Assembly (NCBI GenBank): GCA_000004985.1
Contig: GG738893.1
DNA: 64,000 nucleotides
Strand: one strand, 5' to 3'
From: Naegleria gruberi
Lineage: Eukaryota
Part shown: piece after piece, positions 2,584 through 55,570 of the stretch
Numbering within the stretch: the stretch's first letter is position 1
Layout of the letters: every line of letters begins with the position of its first letter
Made by a program: the position numbers and the translations under genes
The notes under the pieces: generated by a model
The model's database searches: none
What the model was told of the DNA's origin: nothing
The model's input: only the letters and a program-made list of their open reading frames with translations

Positions 2584-4341
2584 ATGCAACAACACGATCA
2601 TCACCACAGTGATGACCATAAATTACTCGACTTGCCCTCCGAAATCTTTGAATTACTAGTCAGTTATATTCCTTTTAAGGAATCTTATCATTTCAGAGTT
2701 TCGCATCGATACTTTCTTTCCGCCTTTTTAAATTATTTTCGTAGAACATTTCGGAATTATTTGAATATTTATAATGAACATTTGATTGATAAATTTAAAT
2801 TAGTGGATTTTGATGATGATGATGAATATAGAGAAATGTATCAGGTAGAATTTGAGAGAATTCAGAATGAATTTAATTGTAAAATTCCATTTATTTTGAA
2901 GGAATTATTAATGATGACTAGACATTTCAATGATGAATCGAATGGTGGCACCTATTCCTATTCACAATATCCAGCACATTGGTTCAATCCAATCAAGTCA
3001 TGGAAGAAGGAGGGAAATATTGTAAGAATTAGTAATTGTGTTGGCCTAGTTCCAAATGGAAAGTATAATAATTTATTGCTTTTAATTTCAGAGTTTAGTT
3101 CAGAGGTAGATTTGAATTATTCACTTTTTTATCCAAATTCTTCCTTGTTTAAGATTCAGGGTGATAGTTTTCCAAAGTATTGCAAATTGGATTTTAATAG
3201 AGGTTTTGCTTACTCCACTTCTAATATAACATCCATTCCTCTAGCTCTTTGTGCTCTGAAATATTTCACAACAATTGACCTTTCTCCAAGGAGGATTTCT
3301 CTTTTAATTTCAAGATTTTCTCCAGATTTATTCAGTAATAAGGAATTCCTTTGGAAAGCTGTCAATATTTACTACAAGATTGGAGAGCAAATACCTGAAA
3401 CCCTTCTCAATGATAGAGATTTTTGTCTCAGATTGGTCAGATCACACGGTAAAGCACTAAAGTATTGCACCAAATTTGTGAAAGATAAGGAAATTGTAAC
3501 TCAAGCTCTGAAACAAAATGGATTTGCTATCAAGTATATCAGTTCACAATATCTGAGATACAATCAAGACTTGTTAGAAATTGCTGTCGAAAGCAAACCA
3601 TTCTCTTTGAATTATGTTCAGAATTCGACTCGTAATTTCAAATCAATGGTCATCAAAGCACTCCAAAATATGAAAGAAATGACCACTATACCACTATTCG
3701 TGGATAATGATGAGTTTCTACAAGATAAGGAGATTGTGGAAATAATTTTAATGAAAAATCCTAAACTCATGGAACAAATGCCAAATATTTGGAGGGAATG
3801 TAGACCTCTAGCAAGAAAGATGCTTTCAACTAAATCTTCTATAACTGGCTTTTCTCAAAAAGTAATTGAGGATCCAAGATTTTTCAAAATGGTTGCCGAA
3901 ACTAAACCAACTTTGCTTATAGAAGAGAAAAAAGACACTTCCAAACTTGTGAAAAAAGTAATGAATGCATGGGGCTTACAATTCAACCATAGAGATGATG
4001 AAGAAACCATGACCAAAATTCTAGAACTAGCAAGAAAGAATCCAGATATTTATTCATTCATGTTACAAATGCCTCGTTTTGGTTGTGGGTATTCTGATTC
4101 ATTGCGATTTACATTTCTGAAAGAGGGAGTTTCACATGATCCTCTCATTATTTGTAATAAGCGAGTAAGGAATATTGTAAGCCTGATTGATTTGGAACAA
4201 CAAGAAGAAATTCTCAAAATATTCCTTAATAATAGGGATAACTCAAAAACAATTTCAGTCACCCTTTCATTTGATAAGCAGCTTTTAAAAAAATATGCAT
4301 TGGAGGGATACAAGAAGGGAATTAAATTGTGCAAATATTAA
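2584..4341 (+). CDS. F-box-like protein with DUF4116-like repeats
   Basis: Start at ATG 2584 after an A-run. The N-terminus LLDLPSEIFELLVSYIPFKE is F-box-like. The central and C-terminal regions carry repeated approx 30-aa units (DKEIVTQALKQNGFAIKYIS, NQDLLEIAVESKPFSLNYV, DKEIVEIILMKNPKLMEQM) that resemble DUF4116 repeats. Confidence 0.5.
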   Translation: MQQHDHHHSDDHKLLDLPSEIFELLVSYIPFKESYHFRVSHRYFLSAFLNYFRRTFRNYLNIYNEHLIDKFKLVDFDDDDEYREMYQVEFERIQNEFNCKIPFILKELLMMTRHFNDESNGGTYSYSQYPAHWFNPIKSWKKEGNIVRISNCVGLVPNGKYNNLLLLISEFSSEVDLNYSLFYPNSSLFKIQGDSFPKYCKLDFNRGFAYSTSNITSIPLALCALKYFTTIDLSPRRISLLISRFSPDLFSNKEFLWKAVNIYYKIGEQIPETLLNDRDFCLRLVRSHGKALKYCTKFVKDKEIVTQALKQNGFAIKYISSQYLRYNQDLLEIAVESKPFSLNYVQNSTRNFKSMVIKALQNMKEMTTIPLFVDNDEFLQDKEIVEIILMKNPKLMEQMPNIWRECRPLARKMLSTKSSITGFSQKVIEDPRFFKMVAETKPTLLIEEKKDTSKLVKKVMNAWGLQFNHRDDEETMTKILELARKNPDIYSFMLQMPRFGCGYSDSLRFTFLKEGVSHDPLIICNKRVRNIVSLIDLEQQEEILKIFLNNRDNSKTISVTLSFDKQLLKKYALEGYKKGIKLCKY

Positions 4342-25730: not shown

Positions 25731-27435
25731 TATTAAATTAGTATCGTTGGAAAGCTTTCAAAATTTATCCGAAACTAATGCTGAATTAAAATTGGAAAAG
25801 TTGGCCAAGTTATTGCATCAATTGACTGATCAAAGTTTATTGATGGTTTGTGATGAAAAACTTGGAGCTACCATCAAGAGTGAATTTGATATTGAATGCA
25901 TCTGTGATGAGATAGCAATTGCCTTGACGAAATTAATTCGTTCTAGATTTGAACACTTGTTGAGAGATGCAAATATTGATGATTTGGAAGAAACTCTTTC
26001 TAATAATCAAGCAAAAATAGAAAAAACTGATACAATGATTGTCCAATCTGTTTCATTATTGGATGAGCTTGAAAAGGAAGTGAATACGTATGTAATGAGA
26101 GTTAAGGAATGGTATGGTTGGCATTTTCCTGAATTGGCAAAGATTTTATCTGATGATTCTCTTTATATAGAGACTGTTTTATGTCTTCAAAATAGAAGCA
26201 ATGCCCAAAATGCTCCATTGACCAATTTTTTAACACAAGCTTTGGCTTTACAAGTTAGAGAAGGAGCCAGTTTTTCAATGGGTGGTGATATTTCTGATGA
26301 AGATATGCTTCAAATTACTAAATTGGCTGAGCAAGTTAAAAGTGTGAGTGAATACAGATCTTCCCTCTTGGATTATGTAAAGAAAAGAATGCAAACCATA
26401 GCACCAAATTTGACTAATCTAGTTGGTGAAATAGTTGGTGCTCGTTTAATTGCTAAATCTGGTGGTTTGGTGAGTTTGGCTAAACAAACATCAGCTTTGA
26501 ATAGTAATAGCAACATTTCTGAACGTGCTCTATTAAGAGCATTATCAAAAAAACAAAACACTCCAAAATATGGTTTATTATATTATCGCGATACACAAAA
26601 AAAGCGTGCTGAATTGGAAAGCGTAGCCAAGGATTCGACTCAAAAGAGAATTCATCAAGTTTTGCCAGCTGATTTATTGCTTGAGATATTTGTAATACTA
26701 TTCGATAGTTTAAACGATGATTGGCAATTCACAACTTTACAAAATTGTTCACTAGTTTGCAAGGAATGGAATGATTTGTTGAATTGGAGAAATTATTCAC
26801 ATGACAGCAATTTGTGGAAATTACTTTTGAGAAATAATTCTATTACATTGGATCAAGAGGAAACTACAGATGTTAGAAAGGAATTATGTAAATATTGGAT
26901 TCCAAGAGGAGAATTGACTGAAATTAGTCCAAATATTGAATTTAGTTATTTTGATTTTGGAAATTATCAAACTTTTGGAGAAATTCATGCTTTCAAAATG
27001 AAAAAGTCATTTGGATTTGGAATTTTAAAACGAATTATTAAGCAAGATGAAGAGATTCATGGATTATTCAAAGAATTCATGACCAATGCCAATCCAGAGC
27101 TTTATTTCCAAGATATTTCCTTAAATTCAGATCTAGTAGACAAGTACGAATCATCTATGGATGATGCCAGAGAGGAATATAATGGAGGAAGAACCTTTGA
27201 GGAAGAAAAGAAGGATTTGGAATCTGATTGTTTATTCTCGCAATTAACTGAACACATCAGAGGAGAAAAGGTAGAGCTATCGGATTTGAATCATTTAAGA
27301 GAATTCATTAAGGAGGAATGTCCTATTGTGGCTGAATATAAGGATTGTATTATTGGTGGTGTATTCTCAATGGCTTTTCTATTAATTACGAAACATGAAC
27401 GATGCGTTTATTTCGAATATTGTGCTGAGGTGTAG
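25731..27435 (+). CDS. Nop5/56/58-family protein, main exon: coiled-coil + Nop domain, fused to a C-terminal F-box-like region
   Basis: TDTMIVQSVSLLDELEKEVNTYVMRVKEWYGWHFPELAKIL and IAPNLTNLVGEIVGARLIAKSGGLVSLAKQTS...TPKYGLLYY align with the Nop56/58 Nop domain. Downstream lies LPADLLLEIFVILFDSLNDDWQFTTLQNCSLVCKEWNDLL, which is F-box-like. There is no KKE/D tail. Confidence 0.6.
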
Positions 27436-45888: not shown

Positions 45889-47445
45889 ATGAAGTTGACA
45901 TCTGCCATTGTCATGGCCATTTTGATGGCTGTGCTTTACGCTACATATGTTACCGCTTCCACAGATTCATTCGATGCATTGACAGATGCCATGGTCGAAG
46001 CAATCTATGCCAGAAGATTACCTAGATCTGGTGGAGGTGCCAGAGGTGGCTCAAGAGGAGGTGCCAGAGGAGGTGCTCGTGGAGGATCAAGAGGTGCTAG
46101 AGGAGGAGCCAGAGGTGGATCTCGTGGTGGTGCCAGAGGTGGTGCTAGAGGAGGTTCTCGTGGTGCCAGAGGTGGATCTAGAGGTGGTGCCAGAGGTGGT
46201 GCTAGAGGAGGAGCCAGAGGAGGATCAAGAGGTGGAAAAGCTGGTAAAGCTGGTAAAGGAGGTAGAGGTGGATCTAGAGGTGGTAAGGCCGGAAAGGGAG
46301 GAAAAGCTGGTAAAGGAGGAAAAGGAAAAGCTGGTAAGGGAGGAAAAGCTGGTAAAGGTGGAAAAGGAAAAGGTGGAAAAGCTGGTAAGGGAGGAAAAGG
46401 TAAAGGAAAAGGAGGTAAGGGTAAAGGTGGTAAAGGAAAAGGTGGAAAGGGAAAGAAGGATAAGAAGGGAAAGAAAGACAAGAAGGGAAAGAAGGATAAG
46501 AAAGATAAGAAGGGAAAGAAGGACAAGAAGGATAAGAATCAACAACAACAAGGTGGAGAACAAGGAGGTCAAGATGGTGGTCAACCAGGAGGTGAACAAC
46601 CACAACAACCAGAACAAGGAGGTGAACAACCACAACAACCTGAACAACCACAAGAACAACCACCAGTTGAACAACCACAACCTGAACAACCACAACAACC
46701 TGAACAAGCTCCAGTTGAACAACCACAACAACCTGAACAACAAGCTCAACCAGAACAAGCTCAACAACCTGAAGTTGCTCAACCACAAGCTCAAGAACAA
46801 CAACCACAAGCTCCAGTTGAACAAACTCAACAACCAGCTCAACAAGCTCCTGTTGAACAACAACCAATTGCTCAACAACCAGCTCAAGAACAAGCTCCAG
46901 TTGCTGCCCAACCTGTTCAAGAACAACCACAAGTTGCTCAACCTCAAGTTCAACAACCTGAAGTAGCTCAACAAGTTGCTCAAGAAGGTCCACAACCAAT
47001 TGCTCAACCTGATCAACCACAACCAGATCAACAAGTTGCTCAACAAAACCCAGACTTCCAACGTGCTCCACAATATGGTGACAAGCAAAGAATTGAATAC
47101 TTGAGAGGAATGATCAAGAAGAATATTTCCCCACAAGTTGCTCAACCAGAACAACAAGTTGCTCAACCTGAAGTAGCTCAACAAGAAGTTCCACAACCAA
47201 TTGCTCAACCTGATCAAGTTGCTCAACCAACTGAACAAACTCAACCAGCTAGAAGAACTAGAAAGTACAACAGAGGTGGTAACAGAAGAGGTACCAGAAG
47301 AAATCAATTCTCTCAAATTCCTGAATTTGGTAGATATTTCTTGGGTAATCAAGCTAAGGCTCAAAATGGTGATAACGATAGAATCAACTTTTTGAGAGGT
47401 TTGATTGATTTGCTCATTGCTCAAACTAAAGCTCAACAAAATTAA
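45889..47445 (+). CDS. Secreted, extremely repetitive low-complexity protein: signal peptide, (GGARGGSRGG)n, (GKAGKGGK)n, (KKDKKG)n, Q/P/E-rich (QPEQPQ, VAQPE)n, basic C-terminal region
   Basis: MKLTSAIVMAILMAVLYATYVTAS signal peptide. There are more than 14 RGG-type decapeptide repeats, then Gly-Lys repeats, then Lys-Asp repeats, then approx 250 aa of Gln/Pro/Glu repeats. Two RI(E/N)(Y/F)LRG(M/L)I motifs occur near the end. Confidence 0.6.
   Translation: MKLTSAIVMAILMAVLYATYVTASTDSFDALTDAMVEAIYARRLPRSGGGARGGSRGGARGGARGGSRGARGGARGGSRGGARGGARGGSRGARGGSRGGARGGARGGARGGSRGGKAGKAGKGGRGGSRGGKAGKGGKAGKGGKGKAGKGGKAGKGGKGKGGKAGKGGKGKGKGGKGKGGKGKGGKGKKDKKGKKDKKGKKDKKDKKGKKDKKDKNQQQQGGEQGGQDGGQPGGEQPQQPEQGGEQPQQPEQPQEQPPVEQPQPEQPQQPEQAPVEQPQQPEQQAQPEQAQQPEVAQPQAQEQQPQAPVEQTQQPAQQAPVEQQPIAQQPAQEQAPVAAQPVQEQPQVAQPQVQQPEVAQQVAQEGPQPIAQPDQPQPDQQVAQQNPDFQRAPQYGDKQRIEYLRGMIKKNISPQVAQPEQQVAQPEVAQQEVPQPIAQPDQVAQPTEQTQPARRTRKYNRGGNRRGTRRNQFSQIPEFGRYFLGNQAKAQNGDNDRINFLRGLIDLLIAQTKAQQN
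46020..47230 (+). repeat. Coding tandem repeat array (30-nt GGARGGSRGG units, GKAGKGG units, KKDKK units, QPEQ-type units)
   Basis: ggtgccagaggtggtgctagaggaggatcaaga-type periodicity is directly visible. This region generates many spurious overlapping ORFs on both strands. Confidence 0.7.
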
Positions 47446-47813: not shown

Positions 47814-47886
47814 CTCCCCCTGGTGGGCTCGAACCACCGACCTGCAGATTAACAGTCTGACGCTCTACCGACTGAGCTAAGGGGGA
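47814..47886 (-). tRNA. tRNA-Asn (anticodon GUU), 73 nt, no encoded CCA
   Basis: Minus-strand sequence TCCCCCTTAGCTCAGTCGGTAGAGCGTCAGACTGTTAATCTGCAGGTCGGTGGTTCGAGCCCACCAGGGGGAG. It folds as a 7-bp acceptor stem, D-arm GCTC/GAGC, anticodon loop CTGTTAA and T-arm GGTGG/TTCGAGC/CCACC. Confidence 0.85.
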
Positions 47887-51022: not shown

Positions 51023-52884
51023 TTATGCAAAGAAATATTCCAATTTCACACTATTCTTTCCATTTACACAATTCAATTGAGAATGATCAATGAATGGTCT
51101 AGTCAACACTTGACCATTCAATACTACTTTAAGAATTTTTGGAGAATCTGGCTTAAAGTTATAAGATTCAATAGACAAGAAACAACCATTCTCTCTCTCC
51201 ACCTGAATACTCTCAAACAATGGAGATCCAACAAAATATTCACTAGAACCAGCTCTTGGATACAAACCAAGTGCTGACCACACAAACCATGCACTCATCG
51301 TTCCATAATCGTTATTTCCAGGCAAACCATCTGGATTCACACTGTATAATCTATCCATCATTTGTCTCACATAGTATTGAGTCAAATCTGCTCTGTCCAC
51401 ATAGTTAAACAAGTACATGCTCATTAGATCATGTTCATTTCCTCCCCAATAGAATGGATTTGGCAATACGGTGAATGGAAAGTCGAAGGAATCTTTTGCG
51501 AATTGTTCCAGTGCAGCAGTGAACTTTTCCTTTGATCCAAACAGGGAAATTAATCGTGGAATATCGTGTGGAACAAAGAATCTATAATGCCAGGCATCAC
51601 CTTCGACATTATAGATTATCGACTGTCCCATCCATCGGCAAATGTTAATTCTGGACAATTCCACTTTCCAGAAATTGATTTTGGACAGAAGAATTGTTCC
51701 TTCTCGTGCCACACATTCTTATAGAATTGAGAACGAGCAGTAAAGTTCAAATAGTCTGCAGTTTCGTTAAGGACCTTAGCAACGGAGGCAATGCATGAAT
51801 CTTCGTAGGAATAATCTAGAGTGAGAACTGCTCCAACTTGGGCAGATTCTTCTGGGACAAAACCAAGAGAATTATATTGAGCTGGATTGACTCTTCCAAC
51901 ATAATTGACTGGTTCATTAGATGTCTTTTTCATTGCTTGATACGTCTTTTGCATATTAATCTTTGAACTTCTCAATTGACCTTTTAGGAATGCTTCTGTA
52001 ATGATAACAATTGCATGATTTCCAACCATTGAACCAGTTTCTCCATTACAGAAAGGCCACTTTGGAAGGAAACCAACTTGATCATTGACTCTTATCAATG
52101 GTATGTGAAATATCCAAAATGATAAAAGATTCTTTCGATTGATCGTTGAAAGTATATCTGTGAATTCCAGAATAATAGCCACTGGTCAATTCTTCATCAA
52201 TGTCATATCTTTCCAAAGTAGTTCTGAAATAACCTGGTTGAACAAATTGAGTTTCCTTATTATAGGCCCTTACTTTTTTGTCTTTCAACAAGAAATCATA
52301 ACTCAATTCTCCCTTATATAGACAAACTGGCATTATTCCAATATTTCCCATATCTGGAATTCCTGCACCTACCAAACGCATATGTGAATGTAATCATCTG
52401 GATAGTAGAAACCACCTGGATGCTCAAAAGAAATCTCCAAATCGAAAGTATTAGTAGTATCAGGTCCAACTCTAATCATTCCATAAGGAGTTTGAGCCAT
52501 TGGACTCATGGTTCCAGAACCAAAGCCCTTGCCAGTTCCAATGAATGGATTCACGTATTTCATATTCTTGTTGCTGTCCTTCTTGAATTTTCTTCCACTC
52601 TTTCCGTTATGTTGTTGTTGAGTTTGTCCAAGATTGTCTGGATGGCCATGGACACGATTTTCCATATCTTGATGATCATCATGATGCATAATATTAATTG
52701 ATGGTTGCTTCATCATTTGTTGATGTGAATAAAACCTCATATTTTGTCTTGGTTGTTGCTGTTGATGATTCATCATTTGTATCATTCTTGATTCTACCAA
52801 CGTGATGATAACAATCAAAATGATCAATAGCATCTGCAGAAGAACATTCGTACGAATCGAACCATCTCTCATCTTCCTATTCAT
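51023..52884 (-). pseudogene. Glycoside hydrolase family 92 (alpha-1,2-mannosidase-like) gene with N-terminal signal peptide and His/Gln-rich region, interrupted by three frameshifts
   Basis: GH92 signatures: NPFIGTGKGFGSGTMSPMAQTPYGMIRVGPDT, NVEGDAWHYRFFVPHD, DYGTMSAWFVWSALGLYP. The protein is spread over 4 overlapping minus-strand ORFs (52369..52884, 52082..52381, 51616..52182, 51023..51712). Homology continues directly across the overlaps, so there is no room for introns. Confidence 0.6.
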
Positions 52885-53247
52885 CTCAATTTTTTCGCTT
52901 AATATCTTCTTTCAATATTAGTGATGTTAGTGTTATCAAACGGGAAGATAAATTGTGAAGGTTCATCATTGGAACAGTTAGCTACTTGGATTTTAGGAGC
53001 AATTACTGCATTTTGGTGTTACTTGAAAGTGGACTGTTGGGAGATTTGGAATTTTATTGGTGTGGTTATTATTTGTTGATATTATTTGTAAAGAATTTCA
53101 GGTCAGAGTAAACTTTGTTGATTAGCTCTATACCCAAAGAATTTCAAGTAATACATGTTTATTTTTCAAAACTAGAGGAAAATTGCAAACGATTCATGTA
53201 TAAAAATGTACAGTAGCTCCAAAGTTGATTAAGATTAAAACAAAAGC

Positions 53248-53267
53248 TGCAGAAGGTGGGATTTGAA
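53248..53267 (-). tRNA. tRNA-Leu (CAA) 3' fragment: T-loop remainder, 3' half of T-stem, acceptor 3' strand and discriminator
   Basis: Minus strand TTCAAATCCCACCTTCTGCA. CCCAC pairs with the GTGGG in the 5' fragment. CTTCTGC pairs with the 5' acceptor GCAGGGG (5 Watson-Crick + 2 G-U pairs). This gives an 81-nt tRNA when joined. Confidence 0.6.
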
Positions 53268-53539
53268 GTTTGAATTTTAAAATATAAAAATATATGAAAA
53301 CAATACAATATTGATGAATAACCTCACGGTGTTTGATGAACAGTCATTTAAAGTTTAAATTTTAGAATTAAAATAATGAAAATAACATCAAATTATCAAT
53401 AGCCAAGGAGTAACCCCATGGTGTTTGATGAACAGTGACTAAAAATTTGAATTTTAGAATAATTTTATCAACAACCATAGAGTAATCCCACGATCTATTA
53501 CCATATATAGATAAAACCTTAATAAAAAAACAATAAAAT
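53268..53539. repeat. 272-bp insertion/tandem array of three degenerate approx 70–90-bp repeat units inside the tRNA-Leu T-loop, flanked by a 9-bp direct duplication GGATTTGAA (53259–53267 and 53540–53548)
   Basis: Units at approx 53268–53327, 53328–53419 and 53420–53492. Each starts with ggtg(t/g)(t/g)(a)tttga and ends with gagtaa(c/t)cccat(g) or similar. Repeated phrases include ggtgtttgatgaacagt and tttgaattttagaat. Confidence 0.6.
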
Positions 53540-53609
53540 GGATTTGAACCCACGAAGCTTGCGCAGTAGAACTTGAGTCTACCCCCTTTGACCACTCGGG
53601 AACCCCTGC
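53540..53609 (-). tRNA. tRNA-Leu (anticodon CAA), 5' portion (positions 1 to approx 64: acceptor 5' strand, D-arm, anticodon arm, long variable arm, 5' half of T-arm), interrupted in the T-loop
   Basis: Minus strand: GCAGGGGTTCCCGAGTGGTCAAAGGGGGTAGACTCAAGTTCTACTGCGCAAGCTTCGTGGGTTCAAATCC. It has the GAGTGGTCAAA D-loop typical of tRNA-Leu, anticodon loop CTCAAGT and a long variable arm. It then runs into AT-rich non-tRNA sequence. Confidence 0.7.
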
Positions 53610-53718
53610 TTCACATAAACAAAACCTTAATACGAGCAATTCTTTTAGATTTAGTGTAACCTAATTTATCGACAGATTGGTAAAAGATAGATATTTGTAA
53701 AGTTGTTTGGTTTTTTAT

Positions 53719-55570
53719 TTAAAATACAAAGGATTCAGTTCTAATGTTATTTTCTGGATATTTGAGTTCTTTAAGCCAATTTCGAATAGAATTCATAAAT
53801 TGAGGAGGTCCACAAAGATAAATTATTGGAATTTCTGAATTGCTGATATTGGAAGCACCTTGTAGAGCTTGTGCAACATCATTAGAATTAATTCTTCTAT
53901 TGAAAATTGAATAATTATTCTCTGCATGTGTAGCATGTCTGGTGGAATCAAAAACTTGTAAACTTGAAACTCTTTCATCATTTCTGAAAGATTTGGTAAA
54001 TTCGGCTTCACTTCCTCTTCCAGAATAGAGAACAGATAACTTGACATTAGATTTACATTCCTGTAAGGCAGACCACATGGAAAGGAATGGAGTTATTCCA
54101 ACTCCGGCAGCTATCCAAATCATATTTGGAGTTTCCACTCGATTGGTTTCCTTTTCAAAACATGTGAAATTTCCACCAACTCCAATCAATTTCAAACTCA
54201 ATTCAGAAACATTGGAATGTAGCAATGGAGTGACAGCTCCATTTTCCACTAATTTGATAGTGCATGAAATAAAATTGGAAGATTCAAATTTGGTGGTTTC
54301 AGTTGTTTCGTCAATTAAGGGAGATGAAGAAATGGTCCAAGTTCTAATGAGATCATCATTGAGTGATTTTGGATTTAAATTATTCATATGTTGATACTTT
54401 TTTTGAATAATTTCACTAAAATCAAATAATGCATAAGATCCTGGCTGATACTTGATTGGAAATTCCAATTTAAATGTAAACTTGGAAATGAGGGGAGTTA
54501 ATTTTTCAACAGACCAAAGTTTAGCTTGATTGGAAGGAATGTGTTGCTCATTTTCAACATGAGTCGATTGATATACTTCTCCTTTCACATGACGAATTGG
54601 TGGATTGTAAGGAGAATATTGATCTGAACCTTCTTGTTTCAAATTCAATCCTTGTTTTACAAATACATGACCTGTCACTCTAATTCTTGTAATCAAAGTG
54701 ACTCGTGGCATGATTTCTTCAGCTTGTTCATCGAATAGATTCTCTGCATCACCAGTAATGTACAACATGTCACCAGTCTGGAAGTTTGGAATTACTAGAC
54801 CAGCAACTCTATCAGATTGTACATTTCCTAAAGATTGATAGAATCTATTACCTGAATAATCTGGTATTACAACATAGGATTGGCCATTTTCATTGTAAAC
54901 TCGGCAAAATCCTGGATTTCCTCCTCTGTGGTTGACTCCAATATCTGAATCTGAATCTTGAGAGATGTGTCGTGTGGAAATGAAGATTGTACTTGCTTGG
55001 TGGATGTGGAATGTTTCTTCTGGTTCTAAAGTAGTGGAATTTGGAGAATCAATTGCAAGTTGAGGAGTTCTTTCCACATACGAAAGCTTTCGAATAGTGA
55101 TATATTTTGGACAGTTTCCCAAGCTTTCATTTGTTTGAATGTCCAAGTTGATGAACTGATTCTTGTACTGGCTAGAATTAATCAATCCACTAACCTTATT
55201 TCTTCTCCTATTACTAAAATCAATACCAAGACCAGCAAAGTATCTAATAGAATTATCCAATTCTCCAAAACAATTGCCAAATGGATCTCCAACTGACAAT
55301 TTTGCCCTAATCGACATTCTACTTCCCTTCTTAATCTTTACAATATCCTCTTCTTCTGCATTTCCAACAATAATACTTGTCCATGGCCTTTGAAATTCAT
55401 CCAATGTGGCCACAACAAAATAACTCAATTGGGAAAAGAATACTTGATGTTGCAAAGGCATTTCGTCTTCAATAAAATCTGGTAATTGACTAGAAACTTG
55501 AAGAGGAACTTGTCTTTTCATTTGGACGAATAATTCGCCCTTGTGTTGTGTGTGATTTTTCAATATCATG
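53719..55570 (-). CDS. Fused oxidoreductase: N-terminal FMN-binding split-barrel (pyridoxamine-5'-phosphate-oxidase-like) domains + C-terminal ferredoxin-NADP reductase-type FAD- and NAD(P)-binding domains; intronless
   Basis: C-terminus: RTWTISSSP (FNR R-x-Y-S/T FAD motif), IAAGVGITPF (NAD-binding Gly-rich motif), CGPPQFM. The N-terminal half has two PNPOx-like segments. First ATG at 55570; the track begins further upstream at a non-ATG codon. Confidence 0.55.

What the first reader, a model, noticed from the sequence alone, without database searches (positions are those of the whole stretch)
53248..53609. tRNA-Leu(CAA) gene split in its T-loop by a 272-bp triple tandem-repeat insertion with a 9-bp target-site-like duplication
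The two pieces reassemble into a canonical 81-nt class II tRNA: 5' part at 53540–53609, 3' part at 53248–53267. The acceptor stems are complementary, and TTCAAATCC is present on both sides of the insert. A T-loop is not a eukaryotic intron position. The insert consists of three diverged approx 70–90-bp units. This looks like either a small non-autonomous element that targeted a tRNA gene or serial slippage duplication of the B-box region. Dictyostelid retroelements are known to target tRNA genes, but normally they land beside the gene, not inside it. I know of no description of this arrangement in that literature.
Basis: seen in the sequence. Interest (0 to 1): 0.7.

Follow-up and report, generated by a model that had tools for sequence, protein, structure and literature searches.

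The report
Insertion-broken tRNA-Leu gene (pseudogene)
A leucine tRNA gene in a Naegleria-like amoeba genome has been cut in two by 272 bases of AT-rich repeated DNA in its T-loop; the result is almost certainly a dead gene copy, not a new kind of intron or a slime-mould transposon target.

Summary
On the minus strand, 53609-53540 is nt 1-62 of a class II tRNA-Leu(CAA), and 53267-53248 supplies the rest. Removing the 272 bp between them plus one copy of TTCAAATCC gives an 81-nt sequence that ARAGORN calls tRNA-Leu(CAA). It agrees with all 49 columns that are invariant among 19 intact tRNA-Leu(CAA) genes from other eukaryotes. The 3' piece is the only match in the window to the pattern that completes the T and acceptor stems, so chance is excluded.

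The window is not dictyostelid: Nop58 and an SNF2 protein point to a heterolobosean near Naegleria/Willaertia. The 3' piece is not an external B box. The insert is a 47-nt leader plus three tandem units of 72, 92 and 61 nt, about 83% identical between neighbours. It has no terminal inverted repeats and no other copy in 64 kb.

The insert carries nine T-runs of four or more on the tRNA strand, including T4 and T7 directly after the B box. It has no bulge-helix-bulge motif and exceeds known tRNA intron lengths. Pol III should therefore stop before the 3' piece. Best reading: an insertion-inactivated tRNA pseudogene. How the insert arose is unresolved. Interest is low.

The parts
53540..53609 (-). 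5' part of tRNA-Leu(CAA), tRNA nt 1-62 (70 bases because of the long variable arm). It holds the acceptor 5' strand, D arm with A box, anticodon arm (CAA), variable arm, T-stem 5' strand and T-loop, with the B box GGTTCAAATCC intact.
53540..53548 (-). Left copy of the 9-bp direct repeat TTCAAATCC (T-loop plus the first two bases of the T-stem 3' strand).
   Evidence: (D6)
53493..53539 (-). Insert leader 'A' (47 nt). It begins ATTTTATTGTTTTTTT, i.e. T4 at 53535-53538 and T7 at 53524-53530, which are Pol III terminator-like. Read on the + strand, the same bases form an A-rich end.
53507..53524 (-). 18-nt copy (16/18, with an exact 12-mer TATTAAGGTTTT) of the tRNA gene's own 5' flank, located inside the insert leader.
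   Evidence: (D4)
53615..53632 (-). 5' flank of the tRNA gene (-23 to -6), the source or partner of the 18-nt copy inside the insert.
53421..53492 (-). Tandem unit B (72 nt). It starts CGTGGGATTAC, and together with the last two bases of leader A this gives TCGTGGG, identical to the T-stem 5' strand context.
53329..53420 (-). Tandem unit C (92 nt), 83% identical to B with a 20-nt indel.
53268..53328 (-). Tandem unit D (61 nt), 83% identical to C. Its homology to C runs 7 nt further, into the right copy of the 9-mer (TTCAAAT against TTTAAAT).
53259..53267 (-). Right copy of the 9-bp direct repeat TTCAAATCC.
   Evidence: (D6)
53248..53258 (-). Orphan 3' end of the tRNA, CACCTTCTGCA: the rest of the T-stem 3' strand, the acceptor 3' strand and discriminator A73.
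53237..53245 (-). Original Pol III terminator TTTTGTTTT, starting 3 nt after the discriminator. Its position is comparable to the T4 at +5 of the intact tRNA-Asn gene at 47814-47886.

Best explanation
This is a tRNA-Leu(CAA) gene of a heterolobosean-like eukaryote that was inactivated when 272 bp of AT-rich DNA came to lie inside its T-loop, between tRNA positions 62 and 63. The 9 bp TTCAAATCC is duplicated on both sides of that DNA.

What should happen at the locus (inferred). The A and B boxes in the 5' part are intact, so TFIIIC and Pol III can still assemble and start transcription. The transcript meets T4 one base after the B box and T7 eight bases later, with seven more T-runs after that. 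It should therefore end at about 75-87 nt, lacking the 3' strands of the T and acceptor stems, and cannot become a tRNA. The 20-nt 3' piece with the original terminator is an orphan.

Origin of the insert (inferred, unresolved). The insert is a short minisatellite: a 47-nt leader and three units of 61-92 nt. I put roughly 45% on a repair or replication template-switch capture that re-annealed on the TTCAAAT microhomology and used some local sequence. I put about 30% on a small non-autonomous mobile element with a true 9-bp target-site duplication. The rest goes to more complex local rearrangement.

Shown: the anatomy, the intact tRNA halves, the T-runs, the absence of a bulge-helix-bulge (BHB) motif, and the taxon. 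Inferred: termination and non-function, and the way the insert arose.
For: - Split gene: the joined halves give ARAGORN tRNA-Leu(caa). The unjoined locus falls below the Rfam threshold. The 3' piece is the unique match in the window to the stem-completing pattern.
- Functional-type tRNA body: a scan found 41 metagenome loci holding 44 copies from other eukaryotes that share its anticodon arm and B box exactly. Among them are 19 distinct full-length intact genes, and the joined sequence agrees with all 49 columns invariant among those.
- All 44 matched copies in that scan continue with CA(C/G) after GGTTCAAATCC, so this kind of disruption is an exception.
- Nine T-runs of four or more lie within the insert on the tRNA strand, including T4 at +72 and T7 at +80. 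The true terminator TTTTGTTTT sits 3 nt after the 3' piece, as it does after the intact tRNA-Asn.
- With the cloverleaf enforced, the junction is a 9x3 internal loop, not a bulge-helix-bulge. The unconstrained fold is 12 kcal/mol better than the cloverleaf fold.
- A review states that eukaryotic tRNA introns are 6-133 nt at position 37/38. It also says that insertions at other positions in one of many synonymous genes are taken to be pseudogenes (PMC4090602).
- Local origin of part of the insert: the exact 12-mer TATTAAGGTTTT occurs only twice in the window, once in the gene's 5' flank and once in the insert. The targeted alignment test gave p about 0.004-0.006. Units begin with T-stem-like CGTGGG and end with T-loop-like TTYAAAT.
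- No TIRs, and no other copy in the window, in GTDB genomes or in IMG/VR.
Against: - The repeat units differ by about 17% (JC distance 0.19), yet the tRNA halves show no visible decay. If the units duplicated in place after the gene died, about 4-5 changes would be expected at the 49 invariant columns (Poisson p about 0.01). This needs a recent insertion of already-diverged repeats, gene conversion from intact paralogues, fast minisatellite evolution, or selection.
- Termination at T-runs is inferred from general Pol III biology and from two genes in the window, not measured in this organism.
- The number of other tRNA-Leu(CAA) genes in this genome is unknown.
- The source of the insert could not be traced because the genome is not in any searchable collection.
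Confidence: 0.8

Rival explanations
1. The 272 bp is a small non-autonomous mobile element, MITE- or SINE-like, that transposed into the T-loop/B box and made a genuine 9-bp target-site duplication. The gene is still a pseudogene, but the insert belongs to a dispersed family, possibly with a preference for tRNA genes.
For: An exact 9-bp direct repeat flanks the insert, and removing it restores the gene perfectly. On the + strand the insert ends in an A-rich stretch, TTAATAAAAAAACAATAAAAT, next to the repeat, as in target-primed reverse transcription. There is precedent for elements inside tRNA-Leu genes: Dada transposons in fish and in the protist Perkinsus, which lack TIRs (PMC3706591). Already-diverged internal repeats together with undecayed tRNA halves would fit a recent insertion.
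Against: No terminal inverted repeats were found. No second copy was found in 64 kb by blastn or nhmmer, nor in the GTDB or IMG/VR scans. The insert contains a copy of this gene's own 5' flank and T-arm-like motifs. The homology between units C and D runs into the 'target duplication', so the 9-mer is not a clean TSD. Dada TSDs are 6-7 bp, not 9.
Confidence: 0.3
2. The whole structure arose in place by serial tandem duplication (slippage) of the segment from the 5' flank to the T-loop. No foreign DNA is involved, and the 9-mer is simply the end of each duplicated unit.
For: A flank-like 18-mer, TCGTGGG and TTYAAAT occur in the insert in the same order as in the gene. Global alignments of each unit to tRNA nt 1-60 score above shuffles (z about 2.9-3.1, p 0.004-0.007). 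The test is lenient and the three units are not independent.
Against: Such a duplication leaves the LAST copy intact and the first one truncated. Here the first copy is pristine, while the last 53 nt of the insert bear no resemblance to tRNA nt 1-53. Local alignments of the units to the tRNA are at chance level. The unit profile does not hit the tRNA 5' part.
Confidence: 0.12
3. The gene is functional. The insert is removed as a very long non-canonical T-loop intron, or at the DNA level using the 9-bp repeat as a pointer, and selection keeps both halves intact.
For: Both halves are undecayed although the repeats between them are about 17% diverged. Non-canonical T-arm introns exist in nucleomorphs and Cyanidioschyzon (PMC4090602). 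In the free fold, unit B's GTGGGATT pairs with the AATCCCAC of the 3' piece, which brings the ends together (I8, 27).
Against: Nine T-runs of four or more, including T7, lie on the coding strand. There is no BHB motif. The insert is 272-281 nt, against 3-24 nt for nucleomorph T-arm introns and at most 133 nt for eukaryotic introns. The units have no significant structure (z -1.5, -1.05 and +0.5). No Rfam intron or snoRNA family matches. None of 44 tRNA-Leu(CAA) copies from other eukaryotes is interrupted there.
Confidence: 0.04
4. The 3' piece is a coincidental match or an external B box, and the 5' part is merely a truncated tRNA fragment.
For: TTCAAATCC alone is not rare: 5 copies in the window against 2.7 expected.
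Against: The 11 nt after it complete the T stem (5/5), the acceptor stem (7/7) and the discriminator, and are followed by a terminator. This is the only such site in the window, with 0.12 expected across the whole window. The B-box GG is missing, and the organism is not a dictyostelid.
Confidence: 0.01

Closest known systems
Eukaryotic tRNA pseudogenes with insertions at non-canonical positions (as summarised in Yoshihisa 2014, PMC4090602)
   Same: One tRNA gene copy is interrupted outside position 37/38. The interruption is not expected to be spliced, and the canonical gene can be recovered by deleting the insert.
   Different: The insert here is unusually long and is itself a three-unit minisatellite. 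It is flanked by an exact 9-bp duplication, and both halves look undecayed.
Dada DNA transposons inserted inside tRNA-Leu, other tRNA and snRNA genes (Kojima & Jurka 2013, PMC3706591)
   Same: Insertion is inside the tRNA gene rather than beside it. Short direct repeats of gene sequence flank the insert. There are no terminal inverted repeats. Non-autonomous derivatives exist, and a protist host (Perkinsus) is known.
   Different: Dada TSDs are 6-7 bp and their sites lie elsewhere in the gene. Dada elements have sub-terminal inverted repeats that match the target. There is no transposase here, no such sub-terminal repeats, no second copy, and a 9-bp repeat.
BHB-dependent non-canonical tRNA introns (Crenarchaeota, Cyanidioschyzon merolae, nucleomorphs)
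   Same: The position is in the T arm, and the exons rebuild a canonical tRNA.
   Different: There is no bulge-helix-bulge, the length is 272-281 nt, the insert is full of Pol III terminators, and direct repeats sit at the borders.
Dictyostelid tRNA-gene-associated features (TRE5/TRE3, DGLT-A, external B box)
   Same: Only the general theme of extra DNA and B-box-like sequence near a tRNA gene.
   Different: Those elements land upstream or downstream of an intact gene, and the ex-B box is a bare B-box copy. Here the gene is broken, the 3' piece is the real 3' end, and the genome is heterolobosean-like, not dictyostelid.
Templated insertions from microhomology-mediated repair or replication template switching (MMBIR/FoSTeS-type events; from general knowledge)
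   Same: There is microhomology at a junction (TTCAAAT), a short duplication of target sequence, and at least one piece copied from within about 100 bp (the 5' flank 18-mer).
   Different: Such insertions are usually shorter. The donor of most of the 272 bp is unknown, and the diverged tandem units cannot have arisen in one step.

Membership tests
Nuclear class II tRNA-Leu gene (functional) | Cloverleaf with long variable arm, CAA anticodon, A73 and conserved nucleotides | tested here: met
   Met only after the insert is removed in silico. ARAGORN calls the joined sequence, and it agrees with 49/49 invariant columns of 19 intact genes.
Nuclear class II tRNA-Leu gene (functional) | Contiguous coding sequence (or an intron at 37/38) that Pol III can transcribe up to the first T-run | tested here: not met
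   A 272-bp insert sits in the T-loop, with T4 and T7 at +72 and +80. The locus is not called by ARAGORN and scores 22.1 bits against the Rfam gathering score of 29.
Non-canonical (BHB-type) tRNA intron | Bulge-helix-bulge or hBH/HBh' motif at the exon-intron junctions | tested here: not met
   The cloverleaf-constrained fold gives a 9x3 internal loop next to the T stem, with no staggered 3-nt bulges around a 4-bp helix.
Non-canonical (BHB-type) tRNA intron | Length within the known range and free of Pol III terminators | tested here: not met
   The insert is 272-281 nt, against at most 133 nt (eukaryotes) and 3-24 nt (nucleomorph T arm). It has nine T-runs of four or more.
Non-canonical (BHB-type) tRNA intron | Excision shown at the RNA level | not testable with these tools
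   No expression data are available for this organism.
Transposable element insertion (MITE, SINE, Dada, MULE) | Target-site duplication flanking the element | tested here: inconclusive
   An exact 9-bp repeat is present. However, 7 of its 9 bases are also homologous to the unit ends, so it may be microhomology. Its length does not fit the 6-7 bp of Dada.
Transposable element insertion (MITE, SINE, Dada, MULE) | Terminal inverted repeats (DNA elements), or a Pol III promoter head with a 3' tail (SINEs) | tested here: not met
   No inverted repeat lies at the insert ends. An A-rich end exists on the + strand, but there is no A/B-box head at the other end.
Transposable element insertion (MITE, SINE, Dada, MULE) | Multiple dispersed copies in the genome | tested here: inconclusive
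   No other copy was found in the 64-kb window or in the GTDB and IMG/VR scans. The source genome itself could not be searched.
Dictyostelid external B box | A B-box consensus copy (GGTTCRANTCC) downstream of an intact tRNA gene, in a dictyostelid | tested here: not met
   The 3' piece reads AACTTCAAATCC, with no GG. The upstream gene is not intact. The taxon is heterolobosean-like.
Minisatellite / tandem repeat | Head-to-tail units of 10-100 bp with recognisable homology | tested here: met
   Three units of 72, 92 and 61 nt are 76-83% identical. The array is too diverged and gapped for TRF to report.
Integrase-type att site at a tRNA 3' end (prokaryotic islands) | The element carries a replacement tRNA 3' end, so the gene stays intact | tested here: not met
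   ATTTTATTG follows the left 9-mer, so the gene is not restored.

The most novel reading that the evidence does not exclude
The two halves are intact because the gene is still used. In this reading, the 272-281-nt T-loop insert is removed either from a read-through or non-Pol III transcript by an unknown splicing route, or at the DNA level with the 9-bp repeat acting like a pointer. That would be a very long T-loop interruption of a nuclear tRNA gene in a heterolobosean. A milder version is that the insert is the first seen member of a small element family that targets the B box or T-loop of tRNA genes in this lineage.
Probability: 0.05. Interest if true: 0.85.

Novelty: new member of a known kind. 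Interest (0 to 1): 0.22.

Why it matters
As read here it matters little. It is one more dead tRNA gene copy, useful mainly for annotation, because tRNA finders miss it and it should be flagged as a pseudogene. It could also serve as a neutral marker of an insertion event between the reductase and GH92 genes.

It would matter if the halves turn out to be expressed and joined, or if the same T-loop interruption recurs in other tRNA genes of this lineage. In that case it would extend disrupted-tRNA biology (non-canonical introns, split genes) to Heterolobosea, or reveal a mobile element that targets the B box. The one point worth a specialist's glance is the contrast between undecayed tRNA halves and about 17% divergence among the repeats.

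Tried and rejected
- Exact-protein look-ups of three window ORFs to find the source genome found nothing on record.
- The only near-identical public sequence, L001 (ENA metagenome contig, 97.7% identical), skips the whole tRNA locus by joining 54415 to 52294. It gives no orthologous site.
- The metagenome scan for the tRNA body returned 41 loci, all intact genes from other organisms and none from this lineage.
- Scans of GTDB genomes and IMG/VR for the unit core CTGTTCATCAAACACCRTGRGGTTA gave 0 hits.
- blastn-short and an nhmmer profile of units B/C/D against the window found only the three units themselves.
- Units as decayed tRNA copies: local alignments were at chance level. Global alignments were mildly above shuffles but the test is lenient. 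Treated as suggestive only.
- Units as snoRNA or other structured RNA: only sub-threshold Rfam hits (SNORD72 18.6 bits, TtnuCD29 17.7 bits, E about 7-8). There is no CUGA D box (read by eye from the sequence, no dedicated search), and folding z-scores are -1.5, -1.05 and +0.5. Rejected.
- Group I or II intron: no Rfam match.
- Solo LTR: no TG...CA ends under any placement of the repeat (read by eye).
- Ciliate-type IES with pointer: the genes read in the standard code and the relatives are heterolobosean. Kept only as part of the low-probability novel case.
- Literature searches for T-loop introns or tRNA-targeting elements in Heterolobosea found nothing specific.

Full report
**1. The observation**

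On the minus strand, 53609-53540 reads GCAGGGGTTCCCGAGTGGTCAAAGGGGGTAGACTCAAGTTCTACTGCGCAAGCTTCGTGGGTTCAAATCC. This is a tRNA-Leu(CAA) from nucleotide 1 through the T-loop. It is followed not by the T-stem 3' strand but by ATTTTATTGTTTTTTT.... 281 nt further on, 53267-53248 reads TTCAAATCCCACCTTCTGCA.

Joining the pieces and dropping one copy of TTCAAATCC gives 81 nt. ARAGORN calls this tRNA-Leu(caa). It has a 7-bp acceptor stem (two G.U pairs), a 3-bp D stem, a 5-bp anticodon stem, a short variable arm, a 5-bp T stem and discriminator A. The same cloverleaf is the minimum-energy fold.

Left as it stands, the locus is missed by ARAGORN. It scores 22.1 bits against the Rfam tRNA model, whose gathering score is 29.

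The 9-mer is repeated exactly at 53540-53548 and 53259-53267, and the neighbouring bases differ. The stem-completing pattern CCCACYYYYTGY occurs once in the window on both strands, against 0.12 expected. That single match is at 53249-53260. Since it also lies on the right strand, 280 nt downstream, and is preceded by the T-loop sequence, chance can be dismissed.

**2. Is the rebuilt tRNA a functional-type sequence?**

I scanned public metagenome contigs for the anticodon arm plus B box of this gene. The scan returned 41 loci with 44 copies. All are uninterrupted tRNA-Leu(CAA) genes from other eukaryotes, and all continue with CA(C/G) after GGTTCAAATCC.

Aligned with the 19 distinct full-length genes, the joined window sequence agrees at all 49 columns that are invariant among them. 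Its variable arm, TGCGCAAGCTTC, is of the same form as in several of them (TGCGTAAGCTTC, TGCATTAGCTTC). Neither half therefore shows recognisable decay. The only candidates for change are the two G.U pairs (U67, U68) in the 3' piece.

**3. Anatomy of the insert**

The insert 53268-53539 (272 bp) has four parts:
- a 47-nt leader A (53493-53539)
- unit B (53421-53492, 72 nt)
- unit C (53329-53420, 92 nt)
- unit D (53268-53328, 61 nt)

These were defined. B-C and C-D are each 83% identical (JC distance 0.19), with a 20-nt indel and several smaller ones. B-D is 76% identical.

Each unit starts with CGTGGG, CATGGGG or CGTGAGG and ends with AAAATTYAAAYTTYAAAT. The homology of D to C runs on through the first 7 bases of the right-hand 9-mer (TTCAAAT against TTTAAAT) and stops there. 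By my rough estimate this has a chance probability of about 0.004. The 9-bp repeat is therefore not a clean target-site duplication.

The leader contains TATTAAGGTTTTATCTAT, a 16/18 copy of the gene's own 5' flank (-23 to -6). The exact 12-mer occurs nowhere else in the window. I estimate p at about 0.03 after allowing for the search space.

There are no terminal inverted repeats. On the + strand the insert ends in an A-rich stretch. The units are not significantly structured (z -1.5, -1.05 and +0.5) and match no RNA family. No other copy exists in the window. The unit core has no match in GTDB genomes or IMG/VR.

**4. Which organism?**

The window is a gene-dense eukaryotic nuclear region of about 34% GC with short introns. 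The best named relatives of its Nop58 are Naegleria fowleri (55%) and Willaertia magna (48%), clearly ahead of all others. The best match of its SNF2 protein is Willaertia magna (38% over 78% of the query). No dictyostelid appears. The source is therefore a heterolobosean-like amoeba whose proteins are not in the collections.

**5. What the locus should do**

The A box and B box are intact in the 5' part, so Pol III initiation is plausible (inferred). On the tRNA strand the insert carries nine runs of four or more T. These include T4 starting one base after the 9-mer (+72), T7 at +80 and two T5 runs.

Both tRNA genes in the window have their first T4 within 3-5 nt of the 3' end: TTTTGTTTT after the orphan 3' piece, and TTTT...TTTTT after tRNA-Asn. 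Most of the metagenomic genes show the same arrangement. By the established rule that Pol III terminates at T-runs, a transcript should end about 75-87 nt from the start. It would lack the 3' strands of the T and acceptor stems.

With the cloverleaf enforced, the junction forms a 9x3 internal loop rather than a bulge-helix-bulge. The unconstrained fold is 12 kcal/mol more stable than the cloverleaf-compatible one. Known eukaryotic tRNA introns are 6-133 nt at 37/38, and nucleomorph T-arm introns are 3-24 nt. Insertions elsewhere in one of several synonymous genes are regarded as pseudogenes (PMC4090602).

I conclude that the gene is dead (confidence about 0.8, or higher if all pseudogene scenarios are pooled).

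**6. How the insert got there**

A pure tandem duplication cannot give this structure:
- Duplicating [T-loop ... downstream] would leave the first copy intact.
- Duplicating [upstream ... T-loop] would leave the last copy intact and put tRNA nt 1-53 at the end of the insert. Neither is seen.

Some non-tRNA DNA was therefore inserted. Two routes fit:
- (a) A repair or replication template switch. The nascent strand left the T-loop after ...TCC and copied a pre-existing minisatellite, perhaps with a piece of the local 5' flank. It returned by annealing its terminal TTCAAAT to the T-loop and re-copied CC. This explains the 9-bp repeat, the homology running into it, the flank copy and the absence of TIRs.
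- (b) A small non-autonomous mobile element with a true 9-bp TSD and an A-rich tail. The precedent is Dada elements inside tRNA-Leu genes, including in the protist Perkinsus (PMC3706591). But Dada makes 6-7-bp TSDs, and nothing here shows mobility.

I put roughly 45% on (a), 30% on (b), and the rest on more complex local histories. Only the whole genome can decide.

**7. The one oddity**

If the units duplicated in place after the gene was broken, their 0.19 distance predicts about 4-5 substitutions at the 49 invariant tRNA columns. None is seen (Poisson p about 0.01). The simplest explanations are:
- the repeats were already diverged when they arrived, so the insertion is recent
- the 70-nt 5' part is homogenised by gene conversion from intact paralogues
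- minisatellites evolve faster than flanking DNA

Selection on a still-functional split gene is the exciting alternative. It conflicts with the terminators, the missing BHB motif and the length, so I give it about 4-5%.

**8. Verdict**

The feature is real and was correctly described. The tRNA halves and the 9-bp repeat are confirmed. The taxon and the ex-B alternative are wrong. The mobile-element idea is untested and has some evidence against it.

This is an insertion-disrupted tRNA pseudogene, a known kind of object, in an unsampled heterolobosean-like genome. Interest is low (0.22). A quick genome-wide BLAST of the insert and a count of intact tRNA-Leu(CAA) genes would settle what remains.

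Noticed in passing
L001 (ENA ERZ929261, contig k127_89678) versus window 55757-54415 and 52294-52090: A metagenome contig is 97.7% identical to the 5' two-thirds of the reductase gene. It then jumps directly to GH92 exon 2 (93.7% identical), skipping 2.1 kb that include the split tRNA. After its nt 1560 it diverges again. This is either an assembly chimera or a structural variant in a close relative.
   Followed up: partly
window 53719-55569 (-): This gene encodes a fusion of a pyridoxamine-phosphate-oxidase-like domain and a ferredoxin-reductase-type FAD/NAD-binding domain. Its best named relatives (46-49% identical) are bdelloid rotifers and chytrids, followed by oomycetes and many alpha-proteobacteria. 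The patchy distribution suggests horizontal transfer.
   Followed up: no
window 45889-47445 (+): This ORF encodes a signal-peptide-like N-terminus followed by long RGG/SRGG, KGG/KDKK and PQ/EQ-rich low-complexity tracts. The region has raised GC (0.42) and strong AT skew (0.30), with overlapping ORFs on both strands. It has no Pfam match.
   Followed up: partly
window 47814-47886 (-): An intact tRNA-Asn(GUU) gene (Rfam 67.9 bits) has TTTT at +5 and TTTTT at +15. It served as the local reference for Pol III terminator placement.
   Followed up: yes
window 53621-53632 and 53513-53524 (-): The exact 12-mer TATTAAGGTTTT occurs only twice in the window, once 12-23 nt upstream of the tRNA and once inside the insert. 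It could be a duplicated flank or a shared upstream promoter element of tRNA genes in this organism. tRNA-Asn does not have it.
   Followed up: partly
window 51023-52884 (-): The gene just downstream appears to be a glycoside hydrolase family 92-like alpha-mannosidase, judged by eye from the ORF translations and not confirmed by any family search. It is spread over at least four ORF pieces, i.e. it contains short introns. GH92 is mostly a bacterial and fungal family.
   Followed up: no
window 25747-27435 (+): A single long ORF carries a Nop58-type Nop domain (aa 104-282) followed by a weak F-box-like match. It probably represents two adjacent genes or exons read through. The N-terminal NOP5 domain is not in this ORF, so there is probably an upstream exon.
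   Followed up: no
window 2584-4341 (+): A DUF4116-repeat protein is encoded here. No other notable feature was seen in this gene.
   Followed up: no
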